Source: an uncultured bacterium
GTDB taxonomy: Bacteria; Omnitrophota; Omnitrophia; Omnitrophales; Aquincolibacteriaceae
DNA: 64,000 nucleotides
Reading direction: 5' to 3'
Assembly (NCBI GenBank): GCA_964434115.1
Contig: CAYSSX010000002.1
Location: forward strand, 137,680-201,679
This document shows, piece by piece, positions 2,036 through 23,171 of this stretch (within the stretch, counting starts at the first letter, position 1; every line of letters starts with the position of its first letter). Below the pieces are notes generated by a model. That model was not told the origin of the DNA. It saw only the letters and a program-made list of their open reading frames with translations, and made no database searches. Made by a program: the position numbers and the translations under genes.

Positions 2036-2052
2036 GCCCGCGCGAGGCGGGC
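2036..2052. terminator. GC-rich hairpin (GCCCGC-GCGAG-GCGGGC) between convergent genes; possible bidirectional terminator, no clear U-tract
   Basis: Perfect 6-bp inverted repeat immediately after the antiporter stop codon (2033-2035) and 15 nt before the stop of the minus-strand gene. Confidence 0.35.
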
Positions 2053-2066
2053 CCACTCGGGGGAAT

Positions 2067-8211: not shown

Positions 8212-8316
8212 ATGAAAGTTTCCAGGAACAGCTCTCGGTTTACATACTTCCTTAAAACTACCTCTGCGGTTGTGGCTGTTTTTTTTACCGTGAATACGGT
8301 TTTTGCGGCTGCGCCC
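8212..8316 (+). other. Predicted signal peptide of the giant protein
   Basis: Basic n-region (K, R, R), hydrophobic core AVVAVFFTVNTVF, AxA-like cleavage site VFA-AA. Confidence 0.55.
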
Positions 8317-11300: not shown

Positions 11301-14300
11301 AGTTCGGGAAATTATGAAGACGTTTATGCTTGGCATGCAGCAGGGAGCTGTGACGGACGCTCTTATTGAAACGGTTGCAGATGCCATTATCGATTCAGGC
11401 AACAATGCCAATCATTCCCTGGAGTGGTGGGCGCGTGAATGGGGGATTCACGGGGGCTGGTTTGATACCTTTTTGGATCAAATTAATGAGGAGTTAATCA
11501 ACGAGGCCATTAATGCTGCAAATATTGTGATTTCGCAGGAGGCGAATGCTCCGCGAGTCATGGCGATGTTTAAAGATGAAAGTCTTTTGCCCGAAGAGAT
11601 CCGTCCTTATGTGGCAGCGTGGAGGGAAAAGCTGAAAGCCGGGAAGCCGATGTTTGACCGCGTTGAAGCCTCTCTTTTCTCAAAAGGCGAGGATGTGAAA
11701 ACCCTCAAGGCGGAAATTGAACGCATCAAGAAAGCTAATGCCGAGATCCGGAGTGCTAATGAAAAGCTTGCCGCTGAAAAGCGTTTTGGTGAAATGTCGC
11801 CTCAGCATAAAGTGCCAAGCGCTTTTGAGTTGACGGCCAAGGCTGCCCAGGCCGAGATGAGCCGCATTAAGAAAGCCCTTGAAACCCTCAATGACCTTCT
11901 GCCGGGCCTGAATCTTCCTGTGCCCGAATCTGAAGTTGTGACTCAGCAAAATTACAGGACGAATCCCTCTGTGGCTGAAACCGCGCTTTGGGATTGGAAA
12001 AATTTCAGGCTTTTGTATACGGATGTTTACGACAATGTTTACGTCCACGGAATTATTCCGGTGGATGTCGAGAAGCTTGATTTTAATGTGACGTATACAA
12101 ACCCTCAGGGAGAGGTTTTTAGGGGTATCGCGGCGATTGAACGCATACAGTATGAAGTGCGCAGTTTCTTTGAAAAGTACGACGCCCTGCCGGATACTCC
12201 GGAGTTCCGGGCCGAGCTTGACGCGAAGCTGGGAGCAGCCTTTCAGGTTTTGAACGAGTGGTACTCAGATGTGCTTGGGTTTCTCAAGCCTGAAAGTATC
12301 CAGGGATTTTTAAAGTCCGGAGGAGCTAAAAGTTACCCCTTTGGACAAGGCTCTGACTTGAGTCCTCGTCAATTCAAAGGGGCTCTCGGGGCCATGCACG
12401 TGGGGCATGTGGAGTCTGCGAAGCTTAGAAAGCAAAAAATGTCTTATTGGATCGGAGGGATGGAGGGCGGTCTTCTCCACGGAGACTTTGAAATGTCCGA
12501 GGGCTACTCAGGCCTGGGCGCGATCATTCAATGGTTCAGACGTGATGCGGCCGGCAAGCTTCTGGGCTTCTCGCGCTTCGGATATAAGGAGTCCGTATCT
12601 TTTTACAACAACCAGATCAAGGAAAAGGAAAAGAAACTCAAAGAAGCCGCTGCCGTTACGGCAAAGGCCAGGACGGACCAAAAAGCGGAACTTGAAATCC
12701 AAGGCCTTGAAGCTGCTGAATTGAAGCTTAGGCAAGACATCGAAGCTTTAAAAGTACAGCGTGAGGCTCTAGTGAGCCGCGGCGAGCAGATGGAAGACAT
12801 CACTTTTCATGACGACCTTTTGCCTGCCGATGCAGAAAAAATTCGTCCTTACAAGGCCGGTGGTGATTTGGCCCGCTATTACATTGACCGTTTTCTCAGG
12901 GAAAACATTGAATCTTATAGAAGTCTGAAGGAAGAGGCTTCCAAGGTTGGGAACAAGGAACGTGCAGCTTTCTATGAAAGACGCGAGCAGGACGTTCGGG
13001 AACGCCTTAAAAGCTTCCGGAAACAAGAGTCTGAGCGGATGCTTGATGTTCTGTCGGGATGGAATTCCGGAGCGCTTCAGGCGCTGGCGGCTGCCAGGGC
13101 GGCCGTGGGACGACAGGATTACGCCGCGGCAGCTGCAGCGCTAATGCCGCTCACGCAATCGCAGGATGCCGGTGAAGATTTTACGGCGGCTTTGAAACAG
13201 ACCGCGCAAGCTCTTGAGCTGTTCTCCCGCGCGGAGCTGCGTGGAGAAGACTTTGTTCCTCAGTCGGAACTTGTGCTTTCTGATATGGCAGGAAGCCCGG
13301 CACAGGTTCTCGGCCTTTTTGCAGCCGCTCAAATTGCCAGCCCAAAACAAGCTCGTTCTGAACTGCGCTCCTTCGATGATGATGAAGAAGTGGTGCTTTC
13401 CGCTGAACTCCAGAATTTGTTCCGAGATGGGCTCGGCATGGATCCAGCCACCTTCAGCCGGGAAGAAAATAAAAACATCCTGAAAAGTTCTGAGGTCTTC
13501 GAATTTCTGATTAACAATCCCTTATTCACAGGAGCCCGAAAAGATCAGCTCCGAAGCATTTTTCAGGGGAACTTAACCTCTTGGGAAAATCTGGCAGCAG
13601 CTCTTTTGGCTGCCCGTTTGGCTCAGCCAGGATTACCCGATCCCGGAGTCGAATACCGGGCCGATGCTGTTTTTACCCTGAAGATGATGGAACGCTTAGG
13701 CTGGGAGCTTTCTAGTGCAGCAGCGCTTCGTAAGCCGATCGAGGAAAGAGCGCGCAATCTGGTAAAAGTCTACGGAGCATTTACAGTTTCTGATTCAGAT
13801 TTTCTTGCCACCGCCGCGAAGGCGCTTTACCGGGTTGTCGGGAATTCCTTCCATGCCACTGAACTCATTTTTGACACAACGGCATTGACTGAGCAGGAAA
13901 GACATACGGTTGAACAGGTCCAGCCTTTCCTTGAATATATTCAAAACAACAATGGATTTTTTGGTGACCGCCTCGGAGATCTTTGGCAGATTTTTCACAA
14001 TCATCTTACCTCGCCCTCGGACATGGCAAAAGCATTTATCGAAAGCGTTGAGGTCTCGTTCAAAGCTCCGGCAACATCCGAGACCCCTTTGATACCCGAT
14101 GATGCGGTTCACGGGCACGCCTTGAAATTGATAAAGTCTCTTTTGACGCTTATTCCCCAAGACCAGTCTGAGATCCGCCTGCAAGCCCTTGAGAAAGCTC
14201 GCGCGATTTTAAGTTCGGACCATACTTACCATGTTGTTTTGTCAGCGATTGAGGTTTTTGATGCCATTGGAACGCCGGCATTACAGGATCTCGTTCTGTA

Positions 14301-17300
14301 TTCCGCGCCATCTATTCCCGCAGATTACCGAAAAAACGCAATCTGGGCCTTGGCTCGTCATCGGGATGCTGCTGTTCCGTATCTGGCCAAGCTGATTATG
14401 GAAGAGCCTGAAGCTCGCTCAAGAAATGCGCTGGCAGAACTTCTGCAGAGAGTGTCCCGGGAGAGTGAATATGCTCCTGAGCCTGTGATGCGGCGTGATG
14501 TCTTTGATTTTTTTATCGGAGACCGGAAAATTGCAGAACAGCTTTTTGCGCTTATGGGCGGCCAGCTTCCCTTTTACAGGCAATTTATTAATTCATCCTG
14601 GCTGATTCCGTTTGATACCAAAGACCGGTTGAATGTCTTGCGCGCCCGTGTGGCGTTACTGCAGAAATTTAAGGGACATTTCACAGCGTCCGATTTTTCA
14701 ACCCTGCTTGAAACATGGGGGTTTGACAGCGTTTCCTACTGGGCAGAGCGAGTCGATTTCACAGCCCAGCGCGAGCACTTTCAATTTCTAATCAATCTTC
14801 CAAGACTTGATAAATCCATTTCTCCTGTTTCGGAAGCCATTCAAATATCCCGCCGCGACCACACGCCGGAACATACTCGATCCATACTGCTTCTTCTTCT
14901 CGAAGGGGGAGTCCTTTCTGGCGGCGGAATCGGTGCCCTCATTGATTTGATTCGTGAAAATCCGAGGGACTCCGTGGAAATTATGGCGTTTCTGATTGTG
15001 GCGCTCAAACTTCAAGATTTTGACTTTGGAGAAGACGGGGTTGTGCAAAGGAGAATTTCCCAGCTTCTTCATTCAAACATTGGCCCCGTTTATTTTATGG
15101 CGAGGAAGCTGGCTAAAAGTATTCCGCATGCCACCAATACTTCAGCTGGACTGGAGGCCGGCATTCGCGCCCCCATCGCAGAGCTGGATGATTCTTTGGG
15201 CCATGGAAATATGCTTTTTTATTTTCTGCGCATGGAGTTTCACCGAGCGCCTTCGACCGGCGATCTGGAAGTTATGCGGCAGACACTGCGCTTGATGCTT
15301 GACCTTCATCACCCAGTTCCCGAAAAACGCATTAAGTCTTCTGATGTCGACCGGGTTATTAGAGTCAGAATGCAGGATCTTGTTAGAAACGTGTTGCATA
15401 CCCGGGTTTTTCCTGCTTTTAAAGCGCCTTTGGTTGAACAGGCGGCATGGTTTATTGGAAGAGAGGTTATGAATATGGGCGGGACGGAAAACGATAGTCC
15501 GGACTATCTCTTGGAACATCCGCCAACATGGGCCAACTTTACCGATGAGGAAAAGCAGTCAGAGGGCTACCGAGCCGCACAGCTTCTTATTAGGACCTTC
15601 ATTGGCTTAAGAGACCGGTATGTTTTGAACCCAAGGGCTATTGAATTTATGAATACGGGCGGTGCAGCGAAACTGGCTTCTGAGGGTGATGTTTTGGGCG
15701 CGCTGAGAGCTCTTCAGGATTGGCGCCAAGGAATGAAACAATCACTGCTGACCCCGTCGGAAATGGAAGACCAATGGGAAATGTATATAAAACGCCACAT
15801 TACTGTGAACGACTTTGGCTATGTAAGCAACAGCAGTTACGGAAATTATAGCGAAGCCAAGTTTAATGAATTTGAACGAGATCGCGTGCTGGAGCGTTTT
15901 GCGGAGAATCTGCACGATGAGTTTTTGGCGCGGTTGTTTCCGCAGTACCAGGAATCCATTAGCCAGGCGGCGCAGGCTCAAACACCTGCCGAAACTAAAC
16001 CGGAAACCGTACTTCCTGAAAGTATCCGCGAACCTCTAAAAAATATTTTGCTTGCACTGCGTGCCTTGGTCAACCAAATGGCGATGGATGGGATCGCAAA
16101 CGAGCGTCTCGTGACGCTTATGCGAGTCCTTGAAACAGAGTCTTTGGATGTCCGGCAGGCGGCGAATATTATCGCGCTTATGCAGGATGAGTCGATCCGA
16201 ATGTATGACTTTTTTAACTTTCATTTTTCAGATTATCCCAAACAGCTTGCTCTGACGCTTGGCAAGGAAAGGGTTTTTGCCAGGTACCGCAAAGACAATG
16301 ACGATGAATTGACAGACAAGCAGTGGGCAAGCCGGGCCCAGGAAACGCTTCTTGCGGATATGAATGCTGAAGAAAAAACCATTTCAACCTTAAAGAGATA
16401 TTTAGAAAGTCTTCAGGTCGTTTTTGGGAGTCTGAAAGCTCAGGAACGTCAGCTTCTCAATCCGATTCCCTTGATCGTGGGTGATCTTCCTGTTTACAGT
16501 TCCAGCTTTGATCCTGAAACTGTTTCTCCTGTGAAGGTAGGGTCCAAAGCCTATGAGCTTCTTACGCTCAAAGCTTCGGGCTATCCTGTTCCTGCACTCA
16601 GTGTGCTGCCCAGCGAACTTCCCCGGACAACCAAGCTTGCCGTGGCTAACCCAATGTTTCGTTTCAGCGTTCTCCGCTCCCTTCTTGAACTTGAAAAAGA
16701 AAGCGGAAGGGTATTTCCCTTTCCTTCAGAAGGTCTAACGGACGCTGAAAAAGAGCAGGTCAGGGTTTTTCGCCAGGGTTATGCTTTCAACCCCGACGCC
16801 CCGCCGCTTTCGATTTCTATCCGGAGCGGATCTTTTTATTCCATGCCGGGAATGATGGACACTGTTCTCAACATGCCTTTTAACGAGGCTATTCGCGATG
16901 AGTTGATCCGTCGCGGTGAGCCTGAGGTTTTCGTCCTCGACAATTACCGGAGATTTTTAAGCGCGTACGCGATAAGCAGGTACGGCATTGATTCACGGTT
17001 TTTTTCAGAAGCAATTGACGAACTGAAACAAAAAGCCGCCCAGCGGCTCGGAAGATCTGCTTCAGCGATTACGATTGCCCAGTTTAATGTAGAGGAACTG
17101 AAAGAGGTCATTCAGAAATTTGAAGAGATCATCAGTTCAAGGGTTTCTGGTTTCGAACTGGAAGATCCTTTCACTCAGGTTTTGAAAGTCACCATGGATG
17201 TTTATAAGTCCTGGAACAGCAATGGGGCCACTCGTTACCGTCAGACCTTTGGTATCTCGGAACGTTTTGGCACGGCGGTCATTTATGAACAAATGGTTTA

Positions 17301-20300
17301 TGGAAACCGCGGCTCAAATTCAGGAACGGCTGTTGTGATTTCTAGTGATCCGGCTATGGGTAAGCATTACATGAGCGGCGCCTGGAAATTCGGAGGACAG
17401 GGAACTGAACTTGTCAGCGGTATGACAGGAGACTATATCGCGCTGACTCATCACGAAGGACAAGGACAAAGTCTGGAAGCGATCAACCCTGCTCTTTTTT
17501 CTGAGGTCCGGCAAGTTGTCGAAAAGCTGGATCGCGACCGAGGCCCTCAAGATATCGAAATCACCGCAGAAGATGGGAAAGTTTATTTGCTTCAGACAAG
17601 ACCCATGGTTCTCTCCGGAAAAGCCCCCAAGATGGTGCTTGAACCAGAGCAGTCTGCGCGTGATGCAGCCATTCCTGCTGTTCAAGGTGTTCCGGTTTCT
17701 CCAAATGCCGCGGTGGGGCGTATGGTGAATGCTCGAAACCTCAGCATTCCTAAACTCAAAGGGATTATCACAGAACTCCGCCGGAAAATGGACGAGGCGG
17801 GTGAAGAAGACCTTGGGATCATTCTTGTATCCGATTACGTTAACGATGATACCGCTGCCGCAATTCTCGATGTTAATAGTGAGCTCGGCCACAGAGGCAT
17901 TACGGGGATCATTAATTCAAAAGTCGGCGTCAGCAGCCATGCTGGTCTTATTGCCCGCCGTTTGGGTATTGCCTATGTCAGTGACGTAGAAGGGCTTGAA
18001 TTTAATGACGTATCAGGCGTAACCCGTTTGGCTGACCAGGACCTTAAATTCGGCATGGCCGGACTGGTGCTCAGCATTGATGGGTATTCCACACTCCAAA
18101 GTGAACACAGCGGAAAGGTTTTCCTTGGTGAAGTCACGCATCGTTTTGCAAAAGGATCGCCGACGCTTGGAGATCGGGACGAAGAAATCATAACTCAGGA
18201 AGAAAAGCCCGCATTTTCCTACGACCCTGAAGAAAAACCCGTTTTGACAAAAGAACCCGTTCGCCTTGCGGTGAATTTGGGGGCCTTTCGAGTCGACAAG
18301 CAAGGACAATCGACGGGCGTGCTGGAATCCAATTTTGATTTATCCAGGGCTAAGATTACAAACACGGTGCCTAATCGCGTGTTCGATGCCTTTTTGCGCA
18401 GCCTTGTCGGCAACCCTAATTTTTCCCTTACGGATATTTATGGTGTTGAGGACGCGGAGAAGTTCTTTGCGTTTCTCCGGGGGAATATCGCTCACGGTGT
18501 TTTTGATATCAATCAGATGGATGTGCATAAGGAAACGGACTTCTGGGTTTTGACTCTGAATGGACACAACATCAGGATCCATGAAGCTCCTGCGGCACCT
18601 GGGATTTTGAATCAGAAGGTCGAGTATTTGATTGATTTTAGCGACCCCGACTTGACGCGTGAAACGAACGAGCAGCGTGAACAGCGCCTCAAAGCACTGC
18701 AGGGCGGTAACTTGAAAAGGGTTTTTGCCTTTTCCGGTGACGAGGATCCAGCGGCCAGAGTTCTCACGCCCGGGATCAATACCCAAGAATTTACGGATGC
18801 TCAGAATCTGTTTCTTCCCCTGGCTTCTCCTTTGACCCTTGCAGCAGCGCAGGTTCTTTCTGTTATTGAGAAGGCCTTTCCCGGAGAGTTTGATGTTTTC
18901 TCCAGTGTTTTGGCTACCCGCCCCTTAAGCGGAGAAGCCGGAAATATTGCTTTTATACGAGACAAACAGTTTGGGAGTGCTTTGAAAGGTTTGTTTCCGC
19001 AAATAGCGCCCGAAGTCCCGGGAAGTCCCGCAACCATGTTTGAATTTGATATTCCAAAAGGTGCCGGGAATGTCAGGCTTTTCCTCGTGCCTAAGCCCGG
19101 ATCAAAGTTTGAACAGGTTAAGAGCTTGGGTAAGGATGAGAAAGCCGCCATGATCAAGGTCCTTCAAAAGGAAATTAACAAGGCCGTTGAGACCGCAGCA
19201 AAAGGCAGCCTTGCACCCTTTCTCCGCTATGCCGGAGAAGAACATCTCAGCTCGCTGACGGCTCTTCGGGATACGCATGCCGTAGTTTTTGACAGCCAGG
19301 CGACGGCCGTTGTGGAAGGCGGCAAGGTGGAACTCTATTTTCACATGAATGACATCGGGTATGCAGCTGCGCTCAGCAAAACACTTGAGTCCTTTCTGGC
19401 TGTCGATGCAGAGCCGATAGAGGCATTGGCGAAACCTCTGTTTGCAAAACAGGCAGCGCAGGGGATTTGGAGGACCGGAACGATTGCGCCCAATCAGATT
19501 ATTCAAACGCCCCGTTTTGTTGCTGCTGGTGATGAAATCGGGTTTGGAATTATCGGAGTCCGCGGACGCATCGGTAAACAGGTCCATCAGCTTCTGGCGT
19601 CAAATCCAAATTATGTTCCGGAATTTTGGATCGGCGTTCAGGATATTGATACGTTGATTCAGCAGTTTAAAGAAGACGTTGGACAGGGGCCCGCCGATGT
19701 TGTCCGGGATGATGAAGTTTATGAACTCGAAAAAGGTAAGGATGAAAACAAAGACCACGTTCTTCTTAAAAACAAAAAAACCGGAGCTTATTTGCTGAAT
19801 CCCAAAACGAATAAACCTTTGGCGATTCCGTATTACAACATCACCATGAAAGCCCAGGGAGATCCTGAGGCCTTTGAACGGCATCTTCGGGAAACTCTGG
19901 GGGATGCCATTGACCGCATAGAAACCCTTTTTAATGCGGCTGGGTTCGGACTTGATCGCAATGATCCGTATTATGACGCCTTTTTGGGAGGCGCTAAGTT
20001 GAAGCGTATTGTTTTGACCGCTCCCGCGAAAGGAGAAGTGGATGTGACGGTTGTTCGAGGCGTGAATGAAAGTGCTTTAGCCAAAGCTGTTGAAAACACA
20101 GAGGGGCAAGTTCTTTTTTGTTCCGCAGCTTCGTGTACCACCAATGGGCTGGGACGTGCTCTTATTGAATTTGTTGGGATTCTTGAAAATGCAGGATTCC
20201 CCGCAGACAGCGTTCGCTTTATCACCCATCACGCCATGACGCCAAGTCAGGGCGCTCTTTTTGGGGCTGCGTCGGCAGGAAAATCTCAGCGCACGGCCAA

Positions 20301-22335
20301 TGACCCTAACATGTCGGCCATGCTGGAAGCGACTGGCGCGAACAAAGTTGTTGTTGAGGTCTGGAATTCTTTCAAGGGAAAATTGAGCGGCGTGTCTCAC
20401 CGTGACGGTAACTATGCAGGATCTGTGCTTGTGGTGACGGCCTTTATTAAGGCCGGAGAAAACAAATACCCTACGGCCGAAGAGATCAATAGGGCTTTTG
20501 AAGATATTGCCGCCAGGGAAGATCTCAAGGGGATTTTGTCCTACAAGCCTGGTGTGATTTCAACAGGCCAAATCGCAGGAGACAGGACAACGTCGATGTT
20601 TTTGCCCGAGTTTACGAAAGTTGAGATCGGAAAAAACGGAGCGGCAGTGACCATGGTTGTCGGCTATGACAACGAAGCCGGATATACCAACGCGGTCATT
20701 CAGTTTGATCAGCTTCTCGCAATGGCGGCTCGCGGAGTGACTCCGCCTGCGGGGCTGGGAGCAGTGGATGCCGCGAATAAAGCCTTGGAAAATAAAATTT
20801 ATATGCAGCGGTATGAAGCACTTCTTCACAGGGTTCGAGGTTATCTGAACCTTAAAGCTCTCAATCTTGAGCAAAATCAGAGGGCGGCTTTTCTGGAATC
20901 CCTGCAGCAGCTTTTGGCCGTCCTTCAGCAAAACACAACGTCTGCTGGAGGGAATCGCGTGTTGGAAGCGGCTCGGGATGCTTTCAGCCAAGTTGAAAGA
21001 ATTGGAACTGCCGAAAATACGGAAATCCGGCAAGTTGAAAATGATCTTGAGAATACCATTTTTGAAATTGAAGACGCGCTCAACGGAACCCAGCCGCGCA
21101 GCGAACTCCGCAGCATTGAACTCGCAATCGAGGCTCTTGGTAATCTCGGACTCAGCATTTCTGATCAGGACCGGATCCGGTTTACCTCTGTGGAAGACGC
21201 TGCACGATACGCGGATCAGCAAATACGGGTTAACTTTGCTTCTCTTGATCTGGCTGGATTGAAATCGCGTGCCGATAAGCTGATACGCGAAGGACACACC
21301 CCTTACCAGGGACGCGAGGCGATTGAACGGGCGGTTCGCGAACTCAATGAGATCCGCGGGATTGATGCGCCCGCATTCCTCAATCACTTGGCAAATTTGG
21401 TGTCAGACCGGATTCGCGAAATCGGTTCAGCGCGCTCCGAACTCCGTGACCTTTCTCCTGCAGCGCCTGCCTTTGAAGACTGGAAAGCCAGTTACCAGAC
21501 AGCCTTACCGTTTTTAGGTGCTGATTACGAAAGCCGCCGCTGGGTCGCTGTCCACATGGCTGACGGCCTTTTTGCGGTTGTGCCCGCGGCGCTTGAACCC
21601 ATTATTCGGGATGCGGCGATGCAGTTTCTCAAACAGGATTTATTTTACTTTGATGGAAACTTTGAAAGACCGACAGATGCCTTGGGGGTCCCGGCTTCCA
21701 CCCAGCCTTCGGCCAACCAGCCTGGGCTTGAGATTTCAGTCACCCGGAAAATCGAAGACGCTGAAACGCATTTTCTTGCTGTGGCCACACTGCTGGCCCG
21801 GAAAGATCAAGCCTATGTTCATGAACTGCTTTTGGATGGCGACCCCGAAGAAGCGGCTCGTCTCAACCAGGCTTTTCGGGAGGAGTATGGTTACACAGGT
21901 TTTGCCGGCCGGTATCAGGTGACGGCGGTTTCTTCCAAGGATCTTGGGAAGAAAATTCAAGGGCTTGTCAGCGGGGTCTATAACAATGTCCGCTCTGCAT
22001 CGGACGCGGCCAACCTTCAGGATTTTATTGCCCGGCATGTCGCTTTCTCAAGCCCAGACCGCGAACTTCTTGTTAAGGGACTTGTCAACACAGGGTGGCT
22101 TATTCACGACGACTTGGGAAATCACCCAGGCATTATCGCGGCCCGTATGGACCGCTCGGTTTCTCTTGCTGCGGGACAGCTTGAGCCTGAGTTAATCCGC
22201 AAGCTCGGAGAAATTGCGGCTCTCCGGAAAGTTATTTCAGCGTCCGGGGAACTTTTTGCGGGGATGAACCTGCAGCTGATCCAGGACCTTTGGGACAATG
22301 CTGTGAAGCAGCGCTGGTTTTACAAGTCAGCATAA
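8212..22335 (+). CDS. Giant secreted multidomain protein (4707 aa) with a mosaic of metallophosphoesterase-, PPDK/PEP-synthase- and GAPDH-like modules plus coiled-coil and HEAT-like regions
   Basis: Single uninterrupted 14,124-nt ORF with RBS AAGGAA upstream. N-terminal signal peptide MKVSRNSSRFTYFLKTTSAVVAVFFTVNTVFA|AAP. Internal modules are listed as separate features below. Confidence 0.8.
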   Translation: MKVSRNSSRFTYFLKTTSAVVAVFFTVNTVFAAAPISINGGAMTSSAVNLGADSFSWFEGLQVPESFGRIESRYWPKETAVKGPAVIHIQDAHANPEAQRHIAELLGDLEARGIVSRISVEGAAGPLHPEILKVSSRSDINLKMADYLLELGELSGAELFALKHPQAPEILGAENTDLYRQSYQTFEKVKRAEVLIRPVLDTYAKELERLQIALFPKELHEYVIRSNEWHRSQERSFRYFDLLARYGREYLGLDFHDARLQFEWPMFVRLMALQDMESKIDSEKSRSESQEIVKALNASGNKISTQDREAFDFLSKKIKVLFDNPSETAAFVPDSRYSEIESIRSLMEFLKRKSQAARLELSLYPDFVKRSGVLILREEIDARMLFSEMEKVERQLEEKMSVSDAEKSLLKTARDFRLLEKLLSLTLTREEYETFSSRVQDFQPAAFRERFRLLDRELKQEKDYPLLSSETVTAAAEFYKLSRSRDEILLDQALSGASGQAVVLVTGGFHSQGMTDLLKERKIPHVVIAPKITTAGEDGLYDKVMMGGHSSSEAPANPALGTLAKMILSQLPSVYGVLQPGTRPEEQAALIFRGLRDAALPALREQGVPEQVIYDELSRWVSQTGVFSGTDFQVSFDSAASRVSLSGAASVETALRSELRMAPEPDTLAWIAANLPEDANRQKVVEAITALNDRKEKDYAEANGAYTGMSLSDFLLQNTAESIPDLDGLIRDVSRIEGLVQEVYSSFGIGGLSLAHRAAFILGAFSQAEFPVIHEALQTAYGAIRFDEHRYSEDLSAEEYARLARKFSEAVSRETVQENLLIRAALTEYVFNIPAQARRALEKENLVNELIRELQEPGKGRVPNLTFLTDLHGSTKVGSFIAFALGIDDYAGITSPQELERRLVADWQKKNPGAPEKSLNEILEERNVLIVGGSDYVDRGPKPYWGFQFNKWLREHGLLKFINGNHDLWKDWNVVGMHLRVHDTLRDIAASGKFNEADLAANIERIQRFVTTAGWDPEKDRTKFEDTEAQVREIMKTFMLGMQQGAVTDALIETVADAIIDSGNNANHSLEWWAREWGIHGGWFDTFLDQINEELINEAINAANIVISQEANAPRVMAMFKDESLLPEEIRPYVAAWREKLKAGKPMFDRVEASLFSKGEDVKTLKAEIERIKKANAEIRSANEKLAAEKRFGEMSPQHKVPSAFELTAKAAQAEMSRIKKALETLNDLLPGLNLPVPESEVVTQQNYRTNPSVAETALWDWKNFRLLYTDVYDNVYVHGIIPVDVEKLDFNVTYTNPQGEVFRGIAAIERIQYEVRSFFEKYDALPDTPEFRAELDAKLGAAFQVLNEWYSDVLGFLKPESIQGFLKSGGAKSYPFGQGSDLSPRQFKGALGAMHVGHVESAKLRKQKMSYWIGGMEGGLLHGDFEMSEGYSGLGAIIQWFRRDAAGKLLGFSRFGYKESVSFYNNQIKEKEKKLKEAAAVTAKARTDQKAELEIQGLEAAELKLRQDIEALKVQREALVSRGEQMEDITFHDDLLPADAEKIRPYKAGGDLARYYIDRFLRENIESYRSLKEEASKVGNKERAAFYERREQDVRERLKSFRKQESERMLDVLSGWNSGALQALAAARAAVGRQDYAAAAAALMPLTQSQDAGEDFTAALKQTAQALELFSRAELRGEDFVPQSELVLSDMAGSPAQVLGLFAAAQIASPKQARSELRSFDDDEEVVLSAELQNLFRDGLGMDPATFSREENKNILKSSEVFEFLINNPLFTGARKDQLRSIFQGNLTSWENLAAALLAARLAQPGLPDPGVEYRADAVFTLKMMERLGWELSSAAALRKPIEERARNLVKVYGAFTVSDSDFLATAAKALYRVVGNSFHATELIFDTTALTEQERHTVEQVQPFLEYIQNNNGFFGDRLGDLWQIFHNHLTSPSDMAKAFIESVEVSFKAPATSETPLIPDDAVHGHALKLIKSLLTLIPQDQSEIRLQALEKARAILSSDHTYHVVLSAIEVFDAIGTPALQDLVLYSAPSIPADYRKNAIWALARHRDAAVPYLAKLIMEEPEARSRNALAELLQRVSRESEYAPEPVMRRDVFDFFIGDRKIAEQLFALMGGQLPFYRQFINSSWLIPFDTKDRLNVLRARVALLQKFKGHFTASDFSTLLETWGFDSVSYWAERVDFTAQREHFQFLINLPRLDKSISPVSEAIQISRRDHTPEHTRSILLLLLEGGVLSGGGIGALIDLIRENPRDSVEIMAFLIVALKLQDFDFGEDGVVQRRISQLLHSNIGPVYFMARKLAKSIPHATNTSAGLEAGIRAPIAELDDSLGHGNMLFYFLRMEFHRAPSTGDLEVMRQTLRLMLDLHHPVPEKRIKSSDVDRVIRVRMQDLVRNVLHTRVFPAFKAPLVEQAAWFIGREVMNMGGTENDSPDYLLEHPPTWANFTDEEKQSEGYRAAQLLIRTFIGLRDRYVLNPRAIEFMNTGGAAKLASEGDVLGALRALQDWRQGMKQSLLTPSEMEDQWEMYIKRHITVNDFGYVSNSSYGNYSEAKFNEFERDRVLERFAENLHDEFLARLFPQYQESISQAAQAQTPAETKPETVLPESIREPLKNILLALRALVNQMAMDGIANERLVTLMRVLETESLDVRQAANIIALMQDESIRMYDFFNFHFSDYPKQLALTLGKERVFARYRKDNDDELTDKQWASRAQETLLADMNAEEKTISTLKRYLESLQVVFGSLKAQERQLLNPIPLIVGDLPVYSSSFDPETVSPVKVGSKAYELLTLKASGYPVPALSVLPSELPRTTKLAVANPMFRFSVLRSLLELEKESGRVFPFPSEGLTDAEKEQVRVFRQGYAFNPDAPPLSISIRSGSFYSMPGMMDTVLNMPFNEAIRDELIRRGEPEVFVLDNYRRFLSAYAISRYGIDSRFFSEAIDELKQKAAQRLGRSASAITIAQFNVEELKEVIQKFEEIISSRVSGFELEDPFTQVLKVTMDVYKSWNSNGATRYRQTFGISERFGTAVIYEQMVYGNRGSNSGTAVVISSDPAMGKHYMSGAWKFGGQGTELVSGMTGDYIALTHHEGQGQSLEAINPALFSEVRQVVEKLDRDRGPQDIEITAEDGKVYLLQTRPMVLSGKAPKMVLEPEQSARDAAIPAVQGVPVSPNAAVGRMVNARNLSIPKLKGIITELRRKMDEAGEEDLGIILVSDYVNDDTAAAILDVNSELGHRGITGIINSKVGVSSHAGLIARRLGIAYVSDVEGLEFNDVSGVTRLADQDLKFGMAGLVLSIDGYSTLQSEHSGKVFLGEVTHRFAKGSPTLGDRDEEIITQEEKPAFSYDPEEKPVLTKEPVRLAVNLGAFRVDKQGQSTGVLESNFDLSRAKITNTVPNRVFDAFLRSLVGNPNFSLTDIYGVEDAEKFFAFLRGNIAHGVFDINQMDVHKETDFWVLTLNGHNIRIHEAPAAPGILNQKVEYLIDFSDPDLTRETNEQREQRLKALQGGNLKRVFAFSGDEDPAARVLTPGINTQEFTDAQNLFLPLASPLTLAAAQVLSVIEKAFPGEFDVFSSVLATRPLSGEAGNIAFIRDKQFGSALKGLFPQIAPEVPGSPATMFEFDIPKGAGNVRLFLVPKPGSKFEQVKSLGKDEKAAMIKVLQKEINKAVETAAKGSLAPFLRYAGEEHLSSLTALRDTHAVVFDSQATAVVEGGKVELYFHMNDIGYAAALSKTLESFLAVDAEPIEALAKPLFAKQAAQGIWRTGTIAPNQIIQTPRFVAAGDEIGFGIIGVRGRIGKQVHQLLASNPNYVPEFWIGVQDIDTLIQQFKEDVGQGPADVVRDDEVYELEKGKDENKDHVLLKNKKTGAYLLNPKTNKPLAIPYYNITMKAQGDPEAFERHLRETLGDAIDRIETLFNAAGFGLDRNDPYYDAFLGGAKLKRIVLTAPAKGEVDVTVVRGVNESALAKAVENTEGQVLFCSAASCTTNGLGRALIEFVGILENAGFPADSVRFITHHAMTPSQGALFGAASAGKSQRTANDPNMSAMLEATGANKVVVEVWNSFKGKLSGVSHRDGNYAGSVLVVTAFIKAGENKYPTAEEINRAFEDIAAREDLKGILSYKPGVISTGQIAGDRTTSMFLPEFTKVEIGKNGAAVTMVVGYDNEAGYTNAVIQFDQLLAMAARGVTPPAGLGAVDAANKALENKIYMQRYEALLHRVRGYLNLKALNLEQNQRAAFLESLQQLLAVLQQNTTSAGGNRVLEAARDAFSQVERIGTAENTEIRQVENDLENTIFEIEDALNGTQPRSELRSIELAIEALGNLGLSISDQDRIRFTSVEDAARYADQQIRVNFASLDLAGLKSRADKLIREGHTPYQGREAIERAVRELNEIRGIDAPAFLNHLANLVSDRIREIGSARSELRDLSPAAPAFEDWKASYQTALPFLGADYESRRWVAVHMADGLFAVVPAALEPIIRDAAMQFLKQDLFYFDGNFERPTDALGVPASTQPSANQPGLEISVTRKIEDAETHFLAVATLLARKDQAYVHELLLDGDPEEAARLNQAFREEYGYTGFAGRYQVTAVSSKDLGKKIQGLVSGVYNNVRSASDAANLQDFIARHVAFSSPDRELLVKGLVNTGWLIHDDLGNHPGIIAARMDRSVSLAAGQLEPELIRKLGEIAALRKVISASGELFAGMNLQLIQDLWDNAVKQRWFYKSA
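10790..11500 (+). other. Calcineurin-like metallophosphoesterase module within the giant protein
   Basis: Ordered motifs D870-L-H-G (FLTDLHG, nt 10819-10830), GGSDYVDRG (GD-x-x-D-R) and G964-N-H-D (INGNHD, nt 11101-11112). These match the metallophosphatase signature DxH..GDxxDRG..GNH[DE]. Confidence 0.6.
16530..17630 (+). other. Pyruvate phosphate dikinase / PEP synthase-like nucleotide-binding (ATP-grasp) module within the giant protein
   Basis: VGSKAYELLTLKASGYPVPALSVLPSE (compare GGKGANLAEM..GLPVPPGF), SMPGMMDTVLNMPFNE (PPDK hallmark SMPGMMDTVLNLGLN), MVYGNRGSNSGTAVVISSDP...GE.LVSG and LLQTRPM. Confidence 0.65.
17690..18140 (+). other. PEP-utilizing-enzyme mobile (phosphohistidine swivel) domain-like module within the giant protein
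   Basis: GITGIINSKVGVSSH(3243)AGLIARRLGIAYVSDVEG resembles the GGxTSHAAIxARExGIPxVVG phosphohistidine motif. The candidate His codon is at 17938-17940. No PEP/pyruvate-binding TIM-barrel domain follows. Confidence 0.55.
19520..20720 (+). other. Glyceraldehyde-3-phosphate dehydrogenase-like module within the giant protein
   Basis: Gly-rich NAD-binding start FGIIGVRGRIGKQV. Active-site motif SAASC(3975)TTNG (ASCTTNC, Cys codon 20134-20136). FITHHAMTPSQGALFGAAS (compare TVHAxTxxQxxxDGPS). VVGYDNEAGYTN (compare WYDNEWGYS). Has a ~40-aa insertion in the N-terminal lobe. Confidence 0.7.
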
Positions 22336-22436
22336 GCGCCGAACCATTTTCTTTTTCGTCTTTCCGGTATGGCCGCAAGAAATCCGCTTTATCTTTTTGG
22401 AATATGTCCGATGAAAGCTCCATACGGAAAGGACCT

Positions 22437-23171
22437 ATGCCCAAGCGTCAAATCCTCGTCCTTCAGACTAAAACCAGCCCATGGAATGAATTTCTAAAAG
22501 AATTTTTCCAGGATACGGCATCGGAACTGTCCTTTTTTCAGGATCCTGCCGCCGTAAAAACGGCCTTGGAGCGCCAGCCTCACGAAATCGTTTTTGCCGA
22601 CCCCGCACTTGTTTCTCTTCCTTTGTCACAGGCCTTAGAAGTCGCGCGGCAATCGGGAAGGGATGTCATTGTTTTTTCAGCAGGAGCGGCACAGCCGGCA
22701 GCCCGGTTTAAATTCGATGAGAATTTTCCGGTTATTCCTGAAATGCTGGAATTTCAAAAAAAACTGCTTCGGTGCCTCCGGTTCCCCGAAAAGATTCATG
22801 TTCTTGTCGTGGACGACGAGCTTGAAATAGGAAGGATGATCTGTGATTTTCTGGATCGCCGCGTGAAGCCGTCCTTTGAAACCGAACATGCCCCTAACGG
22901 CGCGGAAGGGCTCCGCCGCATTCTTGAGCGCGCACCTGATGTGATGGTGCTTGATATTAAAATGCCTCTTCTTGACGGCCGTGAAGTTTACCGGGAAATG
23001 CGCAAAAACGGCCTGAATGTGCCGACAATCGTTTTTTTTGACGCTGTCTTTGGAGACGAACTCGCCGAGATGCGTCTTTACGGAAAGCCCGCAGTGATTG
23101 AAAAAGGCGCCCCCCAGAGCGCCCTTCCTGAATTACTCGAACTCGTAAAAAAGATGTGGTTTTTCTGCTGA
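22437..23171 (+). CDS. Response regulator with a degenerate N-terminal receiver-like domain plus a canonical C-terminal receiver domain, and no output domain
   Basis: C-terminal HVLVVDDELEIGRMI...VMVLDIKMPLLDGREVYREMRK (CheY-like DD..D..K). The N-terminal half (ILVLQTK...) has receiver-like spacing but lacks the acidic pocket. Start is ambiguous: ATG 22437 with GGAAAGGA upstream, alternatives 22404 or 22290. Confidence 0.6.
   Translation: MPKRQILVLQTKTSPWNEFLKEFFQDTASELSFFQDPAAVKTALERQPHEIVFADPALVSLPLSQALEVARQSGRDVIVFSAGAAQPAARFKFDENFPVIPEMLEFQKKLLRCLRFPEKIHVLVVDDELEIGRMICDFLDRRVKPSFETEHAPNGAEGLRRILERAPDVMVLDIKMPLLDGREVYREMRKNGLNVPTIVFFDAVFGDELAEMRLYGKPAVIEKGAPQSALPELLELVKKMWFFC

What the first reader, a model, noticed from the sequence alone, without database searches (positions are those of the whole stretch)
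16530..18140. PPDK/PEP-synthase-like ATP-grasp plus phosphohistidine swivel domain pair lacking the PEP/pyruvate TIM-barrel
SMPGMMDTVLNMPFNE is a near-copy of the diagnostic PPDK N-domain motif. It is preceded by a GGKGANLAEM-like stretch (VGSKAYELLTLKASGYPVPA) and followed by MVYGN...GE.LVSG.

About 100 aa later, GVSSH(3243)AGLIARRLGIAYV matches the phosphohistidine carrier motif of PEP-utilising enzymes. The third, PEP/pyruvate-binding TIM-barrel domain is absent. This is the architecture seen in rifampicin phosphotransferase and other PEP-synthase-like kinases that move a phosphoryl or pyrophosphoryl group from ATP via His onto a non-pyruvate acceptor.

Within a secreted giant protein this could mean phosphorylation of an extracellular or partner-cell substrate, perhaps cooperating with the metallophosphoesterase module upstream.
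Basis: seen in the sequence. Interest (0 to 1): 0.72.

Follow-up and report, generated by a model that had tools for sequence, protein, structure and literature searches.

The report
Barrel-less PPDK-derived phosphotransfer module, GAPDH-linked
A 4,707-residue Omnitrophota protein carries the ATP-binding and phospho-histidine domains of pyruvate phosphate dikinase but not its pyruvate-binding barrel, and this module belongs to an apparently undescribed family that sits beside, or is fused to, GAPDH-like enzymes.

Summary
Residues 2760-3308 of a 4,707-aa ORF (window 8212-22335, +) form a PPDK-type ATP-grasp domain plus a phospho-histidine swivel domain. His3243 aligns with the catalytic His455 of Clostridium symbiosum PPDK. 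No PEP/pyruvate TIM barrel is detectable anywhere in the protein.

The module descends from genuine PPDK, not from rifampicin phosphotransferase. Its catalytic residues are invariant across 27 barrel-less relatives. dN/dS against an ortholog about 87% identical over the module (80-85% over the whole protein) is about 0.04.

The module is the C-terminal part of a larger conserved unit: about 1,000 aa of helical N-domain, then ATP-grasp, then swivel. That unit also exists as stand-alone 1,360-1,430-aa proteins, seen in Desulfobacterota and Bacteroidales. In 5 of 7 genomic contexts the stand-alone gene is immediately followed by a GAPDH gene; three are 415-442 aa and a fourth, cut by the contig end, starts with the same signature. 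In this protein the unit is fused, in the same order, to two GAPDH-like domains.

Most likely mechanism: ATP passes a phosphoryl group to His3243, which passes it to a non-pyruvate acceptor linked to the GAPDH-like partner. The acceptor is not identified.

PPDK_N domains in Omnitrophota giant proteins were already reported, and M. tuberculosis VadK is an experimentally characterised barrel-less PPDK derivative. I rate this a new variant of a known kind.

The parts
8212..22335 (+). Giant ORF, 4,707 aa, Omnitrophota. It contains all the parts listed below.
   Evidence: ORF list and translation. It is a singleton cluster on a 481-kb NCBI contig. The rpoB and rpoC genes of the window fall in clusters named Candidatus Omnitrophota. 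An ortholog 80-85% identical lies on L001.
8212..8319 (+). N-terminal basic stretch plus hydrophobic segment (MKVSRNSSRFTYFLKTTSAVVAVFFTVNTVFAAAP). It looks like a signal peptide or signal anchor.
   Evidence: It is the only strong hydrophobic segment in 4,707 aa. Equivalent segments occur in the large homologs P0135-P0138, P0166 and P0171 and in mid-size members, and are absent from the ~1,400-aa stand-alone family. This is a heuristic judgement; no SignalP run was possible.
13354..13368 (+). RSELR motif (aa 1715-1719) marking the start of the dikinase-like unit.
   Evidence: RSExR occurs 4 times where 0.11 is expected. In homologs the motif brackets a unit of about 1,440-1,455 aa, the size of the stand-alone proteins.
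13369..16488 (+). All-alpha N-domain of the dikinase-like unit (aa 1720-2759). It is the candidate acceptor- or partner-binding region.
   Evidence: phmmer shows colinear matches of aa ~2240-2720 to residues ~420-860 of stand-alone 1,400-aa proteins (E 1e-11 to 1e-15), and of aa ~1950-2735 to P0141 (5e-56). No Pfam domain is found. The AlphaFold2 model is helical but low-confidence. dN/dS is 0.09.
16489..17610 (+). PPDK-type ATP-grasp nucleotide-binding domain (aa 2760-3133). Catalytic residues are K2779, R2871, G2880, D3114, E3116, Q3128 and R3130.
   Evidence: Pfam PPDK_N 5.3e-14; TIGR01828 2.6e-57; PDB PPDK 8e-37. Catalytic residues are conserved. dN/dS is 0.042. The model has pLDDT mostly 85-95.
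17611..17682 (+). Short linker (aa 3134-3157). It replaces the roughly 45-residue helical linker of true PPDK.
   Evidence: Alignment with PPDKs shows a gap where PPDKs have GKRT...LLHP. This stretch has low pLDDT in the model (model residues 377-384).
17683..18135 (+). Phospho-histidine swivel (central) domain (aa 3158-3308). It has two lineage-specific insertions.
   Evidence: PEP-utilizers hit 5.5e-4, below the gathering score. TIGR01828 coverage extends to profile position 507. The fold matches the PPDK central domain, including the NMR structure 2fm4. dN/dS is 0.033.
17938..17940 (+). His3243 codon, the predicted phosphoryl-carrier histidine.
   Evidence: It aligns with His455 of C. symbiosum PPDK. 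It is invariant in all 27 barrel-less relatives and 6 PPDKs aligned.
18256..19503 (+). GAPDH-like domain 1 (aa 3349-3764), a pseudo-enzyme. The GxGxxG motif is lost, the catalytic Cys is replaced by Pro (ASPLTL), and the catalytic His is lost.
   Evidence: NCBIfam PRK07729 GAPDH 5.4e-8, covering profile 17-321/343. Alignment with operon GAPDHs. P0136, P0138 and P0171 show the same Cys-to-Pro state.
19504..20736 (+). GAPDH-like domain 2 (aa 3765-4175). It keeps the catalytic Cys3975 (SCTTNGL) and His (THHA), plus residues aligning with R231 and T179.
   Evidence: Pfam Gp_dh_C 6.9e-12; TIGR01534 5.5e-32. Alignment.

Best explanation
**What it is.** The segment is a catalytically competent phosphotransfer module derived from PPDK. 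An ATP-grasp domain (aa 2760-3133) uses MgATP to phosphorylate His3243 on a tethered swivel domain (aa 3158-3308). Because the PEP/pyruvate TIM barrel and the helical PPDK linkers are gone, the phosphoryl group cannot go to pyruvate.

**The larger unit.** The module is the C-terminal half of a conserved ~1,400-1,600-aa unit: an all-alpha N-domain, then ATP-grasp, then swivel. That unit exists as stand-alone cytoplasmic proteins in other phyla.

**The partner.** The unit is genetically coupled to GAPDH paralogs. In operons the GAPDH gene lies immediately downstream. In this Omnitrophota protein the fusion is in the same order: unit, then pseudo-GAPDH, then an apparently active GAPDH-like domain.

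**Proposed mechanism.** His3243~P delivers phosphate to an acceptor presented by the N-domain and/or the GAPDH-like partner. The acceptor could be a small phospho-acceptor feeding the GAPDH-type active site, or the partner protein itself in a regulatory mode like VadK.

**Shown:** domain identity, catalytic-residue conservation, absence of the barrel, family membership, the GAPDH linkage, and purifying selection.

**Inferred:** autophosphorylation activity, the identity of the acceptor, and the cellular location.
For: Identity and fold of the module:
- Pfam PPDK_N 5.3e-14, TIGR01828 2.6e-57 and PDB PPDK 8e-37.
- AlphaFold2 model pLDDT 81.8, matching 1kbl/1dik at TM 0.70. That is the conformer in which the His domain docks on the nucleotide domain.

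Catalytic competence:
- The equivalents of K22, R92, G101, E323, Q335 and His455 are invariant, and R337 is kept in 25 of 27 (K22 could not be scored in the N-terminally truncated P0140), barrel-less relatives that are at most ~50% identical to one another.
- dN/dS is 0.039 for the module against ortholog L001.

Absence of the barrel:
- No PF02896 hit.
- The local TIM-barrel HMM gives no hit in this protein or in ~30 long relatives, while the full-length PPDKs in the set score 1e-88 to 1e-179.
- In many relatives the protein simply ends 10-25 residues after the swivel domain.

Larger unit:
- The upstream region is homologous and colinear with the N-terminal region of the stand-alone 1,400-aa proteins.
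- RSExR motifs bracket a 1,438-aa unit in P0136 and a 1,455-aa unit in P0137.

GAPDH linkage:
- A GAPDH gene lies immediately downstream in L007, L009, L010, L013 and L014, which is 5 of 7 contexts.
- The module is fused to GAPDH-like domains in this protein and in P0135, P0136, P0138 and P0171.

Precedent:
- The truncated PPDK derivative VadK autophosphorylates on its catalytic His with ATP and Mg2+ (PMC13400623).
Against: - No biochemical data exist for this family, and the acceptor is not identified.
- The N-domain model is low-confidence (pLDDT 35-75), so no binding site can be named.
- GAPDH linkage is absent in the two Bacteroidales contexts (L003, L012) and in homolog P0137. GAPDH may therefore be a frequent partner rather than an obligate one.
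- gap-pgk-tpi is a common housekeeping cluster, so part of the neighbourhood signal could be synteny. However, L009 and L013 have the GAPDH gene without pgk or tpi.
- The E of the conserved GE(D)VV(A/S)G motif is Thr here (GTELVSG), with unknown consequence.
- The PEP-utilizers Pfam score is below the gathering threshold.
- The signal-peptide-like N-terminus sits uneasily with ATP and NAD dependence.
Confidence: 0.65

Rival explanations
1. Regulatory histidine autokinase of the VadK type. The module autophosphorylates and then tunes the activity of the fused or neighbouring GAPDH-like enzymes through protein-protein contact or protein phosphorylation. It does not phosphorylate a metabolite.
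For: VadK is a barrel-less PPDK derivative that autophosphorylates and binds methylcitrate-cycle enzymes. A long helical N-domain is typical of protein-interaction scaffolds. GAPDH-like domain 1 is a conserved pseudo-enzyme, which suggests a regulatory or structural role. Relative P0001 carries PAS domains after the swivel domain.
Against: The module scores only 153.9 bits against the truncated-PPDK model NF004531/PRK05878 (534 positions; that this is the mycobacterial VadK-type protein is my recollection), whose cut-off is 456. It scores better against full PPDK, so it is not a VadK ortholog. VadK's own target chemistry is still unclear. No phospho-acceptor site on GAPDH is known.
Confidence: 0.3
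2. Metabolite dikinase feeding a dedicated GAPDH paralog. His~P phosphorylates a carboxylate such as 3-phosphoglycerate to an acyl phosphate, which GAPDH-like domain 2 then reduces. This would be an ATP-to-AMP-driven version of the PGK+GAPDH, AK+ASADH or ProB+ProA logic.
For: The dikinase gene followed by a GAPDH paralog is conserved as a gene order and as a fusion. GAPDH-like domain 2 and the three full-length long operon paralogs aligned (L007, L009, L010) keep Cys149, His176 and the residues aligned with the phosphate-site residues T179 and R231. Phospho-histidine has enough group-transfer potential; that point rests on established thermodynamics of PPDK and is an inference here.
Against: PGK is encoded in the same operons (L007, L010), so the bypass would be redundant. 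No substrate pocket has been identified. GAPDH-like domain 1 is catalytically dead. There is no precedent for an acyl-phosphate-forming dikinase.
Confidence: 0.2
3. ATP-driven analogue of PTS Enzyme I. The swivel His~P is passed to an HPr-type carrier or another phosphorelay protein, possibly the response regulator encoded at 22290-23171.
For: Relative P0144 carries three HPr domains directly after the module (Pfam PTS-HPr 1.2e-20). In L007 the stand-alone gene follows rpoN-hpf-ptsN-rapZ-EIIA. The swivel domain is homologous to that of Enzyme I, which is established knowledge. A receiver-domain gene overlaps the 3' end of this ORF.
Against: No HPr-like domain is found in this protein or in any other fetched relative. 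Only one of about 30 relatives has the fusion. Transfer from a swivel His to a receiver Asp is unprecedented.
Confidence: 0.12
4. Genuine PPDK activity with the PEP/pyruvate barrel supplied in trans. This is effectively the published reading that these domains interconvert pyruvate and PEP.
For: West-Roberts et al. state that Archaeovorins contain PPDK domains that interconvert pyruvate and PEP. The module is clearly PPDK-derived.
Against: No PF02896 domain occurs in the protein or in any neighbouring gene of seven contexts. The helical linkers that couple the swivel domain to the barrel are deleted. Many relatives terminate right after the swivel domain.
Confidence: 0.03
5. Catalytically dead structural or adhesive domain of a surface protein, that is, a moonlighting glycolytic-enzyme fold.
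For: The protein has a signal-peptide-like N-terminus, and ATP is not expected outside the cell. GAPDH-like domain 1 is already a pseudo-enzyme.
Against: All ATP/Mg/phosphate ligands and the carrier His are kept across the family, apart from R337 in two distant relatives. dN/dS is 0.04, lower than in the flanking regions.
Confidence: 0.05

Closest known systems
Pyruvate, phosphate dikinase (PPDK, EC 2.7.9.1; TIGR01828; PDB 1kbl/1dik)
   Same: The ATP-grasp nucleotide domain and central phospho-His domain are in the same order, at 30-35% identity. The equivalents of K22, R92, G101, D321, E323, Q335, R337 and His455 are conserved. The predicted two-domain arrangement matches 1kbl.
   Different: It has no PEP/pyruvate TIM barrel, and the ~45-aa helical linker is deleted. 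The swivel domain carries two insertions. The TSH motif reads SSH, and GEDVVAG reads GTELVSG. It scores 194.5 bits against a cut-off of 843.
VadK (Rv1127c) of Mycobacterium tuberculosis, a truncated PPDK-derived histidine autokinase (PMC13400623)
   Same: It is PPDK-derived, has the ATP-grasp plus phospho-His domains without the barrel, and is associated with central-carbon-metabolism enzymes.
   Different: VadK is a stand-alone protein of about 50 kDa with no N-terminal helical domain. This module is not its ortholog: NF004531 (the truncated-PPDK model, by my recollection the VadK-type protein) gives 153.9 bits against a cut-off of 456, and the ATP-grasp domain alone accounts for the match. 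The partners differ too: methylcitrate-cycle enzymes there, GAPDH paralogs here.
Rifampicin phosphotransferase (RPH; PDB 5hv1/5fbt; NF041857)
   Same: It is an ATP-grasp plus His-swivel kinase without a TIM barrel, and it transfers phosphate to a non-pyruvate acceptor.
   Different: RPH comes from the PEP-synthase lineage. Its rifampicin-binding domain is inserted between the ATP-grasp and the C-terminal swivel domain. The fold match is only 4e-9, against 8.6e-34 for PPDK. This protein gives no NCBIfam RPH hit.
PPDK_N domains reported in Omnitrophota 'Archaeovorin' giant proteins (West-Roberts et al. 2023, bioRxiv 10.1101/2023.11.21.568195)
   Same: Same phylum and the same Pfam domain. The paper describes very large proteins with helical HEAT repeats and domains derived from glycolytic enzymes.
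   Different: The paper reads these as pyruvate/PEP-interconverting domains and does not note the missing barrel, the conserved N-domain or the GAPDH linkage. This protein has 4,707 aa, against >=30,000 aa, and only one hydrophobic segment.
PTS Enzyme I, with glucan water dikinase and phenylphosphate / hydroxyphenylethanone (HpeHI) kinases
   Same: All share the homologous swivel-His carrier. GWD, phenylphosphate synthase and HpeHI also pair it with an ATP-grasp and a non-pyruvate acceptor. One relative (P0144) is fused to HPr domains, echoing the Enzyme I to HPr transfer.
   Different: Enzyme I uses PEP through a TIM barrel rather than ATP. In GWD the His domain precedes the ATP domain. HpeHI and phenylphosphate synthase are multi-subunit enzymes; the HpeI fold match is only 1.4e-4.

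Membership tests
Pyruvate, phosphate dikinase (TIGR01828 / EC 2.7.9.1) | N-terminal ATP-grasp nucleotide-binding domain with the K22/R92/G101/D321/E323/Q335/R337 set | tested here: met
   K2779, R2871, G2880, D3114, E3116, Q3128 and R3130 are aligned and conserved. PPDK_N scores 5.3e-14.
Pyruvate, phosphate dikinase (TIGR01828 / EC 2.7.9.1) | Central swivel domain with the catalytic His in a T-S-H motif | tested here: met
   His3243 aligns with His455. The motif reads S-S-H, with Thr453 replaced by Ser.
Pyruvate, phosphate dikinase (TIGR01828 / EC 2.7.9.1) | C-terminal PEP/pyruvate-binding TIM barrel (PF02896) | tested here: not met
   No PF02896 hit at E <= 0.1. The local barrel HMM gives no hit. 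The sequence after aa 3308 is a linker followed by a GAPDH-like domain.
Pyruvate, phosphate dikinase (TIGR01828 / EC 2.7.9.1) | Score at or above the curated equivalog cut-off (843.45 bits) | tested here: not met
   194.5 bits, covering profile positions 74-507 only.
Rifampicin phosphotransferase (NF041857) | ATP-grasp, then an inserted rifampicin-binding domain, then a C-terminal swivel His; PEP-synthase lineage | tested here: not met
   No NCBIfam RPH hit for this protein. Foldseek gives 4e-9 at TM 0.32, against 8.6e-34 at TM 0.70 for PPDK. No inserted domain lies between the ATP-grasp and swivel domains.
VadK / truncated PPDK (NF004531, PRK05878; linked to VadK by my recollection) | Two-domain PPDK derivative without the barrel | tested here: met
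   Same two domains, no barrel.
VadK / truncated PPDK (NF004531, PRK05878; linked to VadK by my recollection) | Equivalog-level sequence score (456 bits) and a stand-alone size (the NF004531 model has 534 positions; VadK itself is about 50 kDa) | tested here: not met
   153.9 bits, profile positions 83-306 only. The module is embedded in a 4,707-aa protein behind a ~1,000-aa N-domain.
VadK / truncated PPDK (NF004531, PRK05878; linked to VadK by my recollection) | ATP/Mg-dependent autophosphorylation on the catalytic His | not testable with these tools
   Shown experimentally for VadK. Here it is only inferred, from residue conservation.
Helical N-domain + ATP-grasp + swivel family (~1,400 aa; annotated 'PEP/pyruvate-binding domain-containing protein'); apparently uncharacterised | Homologous helical region directly upstream of the module | tested here: met
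   phmmer gives colinear matches between aa 2240-2720 and residues ~420-860 of P0213, P0159, P0271 and P0276 (1e-11 to 1e-15), and a match to P0141 at 5e-56.
Helical N-domain + ATP-grasp + swivel family (~1,400 aa; annotated 'PEP/pyruvate-binding domain-containing protein'); apparently uncharacterised | Module lacks the barrel and the helical PPDK linker | tested here: met
Helical N-domain + ATP-grasp + swivel family (~1,400 aa; annotated 'PEP/pyruvate-binding domain-containing protein'); apparently uncharacterised | GAPDH paralog immediately downstream, as a separate gene or as a fusion | tested here: met
   Operon contexts L007, L009, L010, L013 and L014. In this protein, GAPDH-like domains lie at aa 3349-3764 and 3765-4175.
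Omnitrophota 'Archaeovorin' giant proteins (West-Roberts 2023) | Very large (>=30,000 aa) multi-TM proteins with HEAT repeats, glycosyltransferases and SecA-like domains | tested here: not met
   This protein has 4,707 aa and one N-terminal hydrophobic segment, and Pfam finds no GT, SecA or HEAT hits. It shares only the phylum, PPDK_N and glycolytic-type domains.

The most novel reading that the evidence does not exclude
The helical-domain + ATP-grasp + swivel proteins and their dedicated GAPDH paralogs form a previously unrecognised two-enzyme system. In it, a PPDK-derived dikinase spends ATP to AMP to phosphorylate a non-pyruvate acceptor, for example a carboxylate converted to an acyl phosphate, which the GAPDH paralog then processes. 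Omnitrophota would have fused this system and placed it behind a signal peptide, so that it acts outside the cytoplasm or inside a host or prey cell.
Probability: 0.15. Interest if true: 0.85.

Novelty: new variant of a known kind. Interest (0 to 1): 0.6.

Why it matters
It corrects a published reading. The PPDK domains counted in Omnitrophota giant proteins are said to interconvert pyruvate and PEP. At least in this lineage they lack the barrel needed to do so.

It defines a widespread family that appears to be uncharacterised, seen in Omnitrophota, Desulfobacterota and Bacteroidales MAGs. Members are routinely mis-annotated as 'pyruvate, phosphate dikinase'.

It provides a Rosetta-stone clue, a gene pair in some genomes and a colinear fusion in others, that ties this family to divergent GAPDH paralogs. 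That makes the question of the acceptor directly testable with a short list of candidates.

If the signal peptide is functional, ATP- and NAD-dependent enzymes are being exported by ultra-small bacteria thought to depend on hosts. That bears on how Omnitrophota interact with partner cells.

Tried and rejected
- **Whole-protein word-index search.** Searching with the full 4,707-aa protein timed out.
- **Module search.** The word-index search returned only true PPDKs plus one fragment, P0001. It missed the protein itself and all large homologs, so absence in that tool is not informative for very long proteins.
- **Region after the swivel domain (aa 3320-3860).** No word-index hits. It later proved to be a degenerate GAPDH fold.
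- **Metagenome contig scan.** The scan with alignment A1 found nothing, because the patterns were poor.
- **Genome contig scan.** It gave only the L001 ortholog and one unrelated Gammaproteobacterial PPDK-like hit.
- **Structure of N-domain plus module.** The N-domain came out helical but low-confidence (pLDDT 35-75), so I did not run fold searches on it.
- **Class III fructose-bisphosphatase idea.** I considered it for the upstream metallophosphoesterase region. No Pfam, NCBIfam or PDB support was found, so I dropped it.
- **HPr domains.** I looked for them in this protein and in all fetched relatives. Only P0144 has them.
- **RPH, GWD and PEP-synthase membership.** Rejected on scores and domain order.

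Full report
**1. The observation**

The window contains one very long + strand ORF, 8212-22335, encoding 4,707 aa.
- VGSKAYELLTLKASGYPVPA at aa 2776-2795
- SMPGMMDTVLNMPFNE at aa 2877-2892
- MVYGN at aa 3028
- GTELVSG at aa 3064
- GVSSHAGLIARRLGIAYV at aa 3239-3256

The histidine is exactly residue 3243.

The profile and structure evidence is strong:
- Pfam gives PPDK_N at E 5.3e-14, above the gathering score, and PEP-utilizers at E 5.5e-4 (19.9 bits, just below the gathering score of 23.1).
- NCBIfam TIGR01828 (PPDK) matches at 2.6e-57 but covers only profile positions 74-507 of 865. Those are the nucleotide-binding and central domains, not the barrel.
- Against PDB sequences the best hits are PPDKs (8e-37). 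HMMER aligns VGVSSHAGLIARRLG with GGMTSHAAVVARGMG, placing His3243 on catalytic His455.
- An AlphaFold2 model of aa 2760-3335 built on 32 sequences has pLDDT 81.8 and pTM 0.81.
- Foldseek ranks C. symbiosum PPDK first (1kbl/1dik, E 8.6e-34, TM 0.70 across both domains). Rifampicin phosphotransferase scores 4e-9 and PEP synthase 2.6e-7.

**2. The TIM barrel is absent**

- No PF02896 match occurs anywhere in the 4,707 aa at E <= 0.1.
- A barrel HMM I built from 30 PPDKs scores the full-length PPDKs in the set at 1e-88 to 1e-179 and gives no hit for this protein.
- The swivel domain ends at ...SGKVFLGEV (aa 3308). A low-complexity linker follows.
- The ~45-residue helical linker that joins the nucleotide and central domains in true PPDK is also deleted. 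A 24-residue stretch replaces it.

**3. The module looks catalytically active**

I aligned this module with 26 barrel-less relatives that are at most ~50% identical to one another, plus six PPDKs. The equivalents of K22, R92, G101, E323, Q335 and His455 are kept in every barrel-less relative in which they could be scored (K22 is missing from the N-terminally truncated P0140). R337 is kept in all but two distant relatives (P0142 and P0238, which have Val). D321 is D, E or N in most relatives.

Against the ortholog on L001 (87% identical over the module, 80-85% over the whole protein), dN/dS values are:

| Region | dN/dS |
|---|---|
| ATP-grasp domain | 0.042 |
| Linker plus swivel domain | 0.033 |
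| Upstream N-domain | 0.09 |
| Linker tail after the swivel | 0.14 |

dS is near saturation, so these ratios are approximate. A decayed scaffold domain is therefore unlikely.

**4. The organism and what is already published**

The rpoB and rpoC genes of the window fall in clusters named Candidatus Omnitrophota.

West-Roberts et al. (bioRxiv 10.1101/2023.11.21.568195) list PPDK_N among the 20 most frequent domains of Omnitrophota giant 'Archaeovorin' proteins. They state that these domains 'interconvert pyruvate and phosphoenolpyruvate', and they mention other glycolytic-enzyme-like domains. So the mere presence of PPDK_N in large Omnitrophota proteins is not new. The missing barrel, which contradicts that functional reading, is not discussed there.

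**5. The wider family**

An exhaustive HMMER search of 1.84 billion representatives shows that the closest relatives are not PPDKs. They fall into three groups:
- Large proteins with the module in mid-chain: P0135-P0138, 3,600-4,500 aa, 43-46% identical over the whole module. P0136 is from Omnitrophota.
- Mid-size proteins of 1,350-2,900 aa.
- Many proteins of 1,360-1,430 aa in which the module sits at the extreme C-terminus, so the protein ends 10-25 residues after the swivel domain. Named examples are from Desulfotignum, Desulfobacterium and Bacteroidales. They are annotated 'PEP/pyruvate-binding domain-containing protein' or, wrongly, 'pyruvate, phosphate dikinase'.

None of these has a barrel.

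The ~1,000 aa upstream of the module in this protein are homologous and colinear with the N-terminal region of these proteins. P0141 matches at 5e-56, and the 1,400-aa group at 1e-11 to 1e-15. This region has no Pfam family. It is predicted to be all-alpha but with low confidence.

The functional unit is therefore N-domain, then ATP-grasp, then swivel, at aa ~1720-3308 here.

**6. Linkage to GAPDH**

For stand-alone members I could inspect seven genomic contexts. In five of them the gene is immediately followed by a GAPDH gene:

| Locus | Downstream GAPDH gene |
|---|---|
| L007 | 442 aa |
| L009 | 434 aa |
| L010 | 415 aa |
| L013 | 402 aa |
| L014 | truncated by the contig end, but starts with the same INxGRxxGTSL...DSTYG signature |

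L007 and L010 continue with a second GAPDH, then PGK, TPI and SecG. L009 and L013 do not, so the pairing is not simply gap-pgk-tpi synteny. The two Bacteroidales contexts lack the pairing.

In this protein the region after the swivel domain is a GAPDH fold. It matches PRK07729 at 5.4e-8 across profile positions 17-321. It has lost its GxGxxG motif, its catalytic Cys (ASPLTL in place of ASCTTN) and its catalytic His. A second GAPDH-like domain follows and keeps Cys3975, the His, and the residues aligning with T179 and R231.

The order in the fusion is unit, then GAPDH-like 1, then GAPDH-like 2. This is colinear with the operon order. P0135, P0136, P0138 and P0171 share the arrangement; P0137 does not. 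A gene pair in some genomes and a colinear fusion in others is a classical Rosetta-stone signal of functional coupling.

**7. Other clues to the acceptor**

- Relative P0144 (4,155 aa) carries three PTS HPr domains right after the module (Pfam 1.2e-20).
- In L007 the stand-alone gene follows rpoN-hpf-ptsN-rapZ-EIIA.
- P0001, a 476-aa fragment 54% identical over the shared part of the module, continues into PAS domains.
- In this window a receiver-domain gene overlaps the 3' end of the ORF.

These point to protein phosphorelay in some members. No HPr-like domain exists in this protein.

**8. Mechanism**

Best supported: MgATP binds the ATP-grasp domain, and His3243 is phosphorylated. By analogy with PPDK this would go through a pyrophosphoryl intermediate, with the beta-phosphate retained. 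The swivel domain sits on a short flexible tether and carries the phosphate to an acceptor that is not pyruvate.

The experimentally characterised precedent is VadK of M. tuberculosis. It is a PPDK derivative without the barrel that autophosphorylates its catalytic His with ATP and Mg2+ and interacts with metabolic enzymes (PMC13400623).

Which acceptor is used remains inference. I rank the options as follows:
1. A regulatory, VadK-like action on the GAPDH-like partner.
2. A metabolite dikinase feeding the GAPDH paralog.
3. An Enzyme I-like relay to HPr-type carriers.

Two further readings are unlikely: barrel-in-trans PPDK activity, and a dead scaffold.

**9. Location**

The only strong hydrophobic segment is at aa ~17-36, after a basic N-terminus, and it ends in AAAP. 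It looks like a signal peptide or signal anchor.

Equivalent N-termini occur in the large and mid-size relatives, of which the few that carry a taxon name are Omnitrophota. None occurs in the twelve stand-alone ~1,400-aa proteins examined. Export is therefore plausible and lineage-specific. It is unverified, and it conflicts with the ATP and NAD dependence of the domains. This remains unexplained.

**10. Verdict**

It is wrong about the RPH-like lineage and about the metallophosphoesterase as partner.

The finding is a new variant of a known kind, namely barrel-less PPDK/PEPS-type His-phosphotransfer kinases. The new elements are the conserved N-domain and the GAPDH coupling. Interest: 0.6.

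Noticed in passing
window 10177-10191, 13354-13368, 21097-21111, 21433-21447 (aa 656, 1715, 4296, 4408): The pentapeptide RSELR occurs 4 times where 0.11 is expected. RSExR occurs 4-6 times in each of the homologs P0135-P0138. It falls at domain junctions, often directly after the swivel domain (P0135, P0136, P0137, P0001, P0142). In P0136 and P0137 it brackets a ~1,440-1,455-aa unit, the size of the stand-alone proteins. It may be a polyprotein processing site or a junction motif.
   Followed up: partly
window 18256-19503 and 19504-20736: Two tandem GAPDH-like domains. The first is a conserved pseudo-enzyme (no GxGxxG, Cys replaced by Pro, His lost), and P0136, P0138 and P0171 share that state. 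The second keeps Cys3975, the His and the phosphate-site residues.
   Followed up: partly
window 8212-8319: A signal-peptide-like N-terminus sits on a protein made of ATP- and NAD-dependent enzyme folds. It is conserved in the large and mid-size relatives (the few that carry a taxon name are Omnitrophota) and absent from the stand-alone ~1,400-aa relatives.
   Followed up: partly
window 22290-23171: An ORF with a response-regulator receiver domain (Pfam 4.5e-13) overlaps the last 46 nt of the giant ORF, which suggests translational coupling.
   Followed up: no
window 10810-11260 (aa 867-1015): A metallophosphoesterase-like region with DxH...GDxxDR...GNHD motifs. The Pfam score is below the gathering threshold (18.6 against 21.5), and there is no PDB sequence match. 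Homologs P0136-P0138 carry a clearer version.
   Followed up: partly
window 8400-10170 (aa ~60-650): An N-terminal region with the motif IQDAHANPEAQ...GGFH is shared by all giant-type homologs (P0135-P0138, P0166, P0171). No Pfam family matches it.
   Followed up: no
P0144 (4,155 aa), residues 3209-3793: A relative of the module is followed by three PTS HPr domains (PF00381, 1.2e-20). This looks like an ATP-grasp-driven analogue of an Enzyme I-HPr fusion.
   Followed up: partly
L013 2447-7998 and L014 267-4034: In two contexts the stand-alone dikinase-like gene is preceded by the same trio: an AMP-binding ligase, a LOG/Lysine_decarbox protein and a CNNM/CorC protein. Lysine_decarbox is also among the top Archaeovorin domains listed by West-Roberts et al..
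   Followed up: no
L001 ~2489-2591: The ortholog on contig CAYRBY010000081.1 changes reading frame near aa 1000 of the protein. This is either a frameshift in the MAG assembly or a real split.
   Followed up: no
P0146 (3,376 aa, Omnitrophota): This protein carries two copies of a more degenerate version of the module (residues 1258-1721 and 2840-3301) inside a large internal duplication.
   Followed up: no
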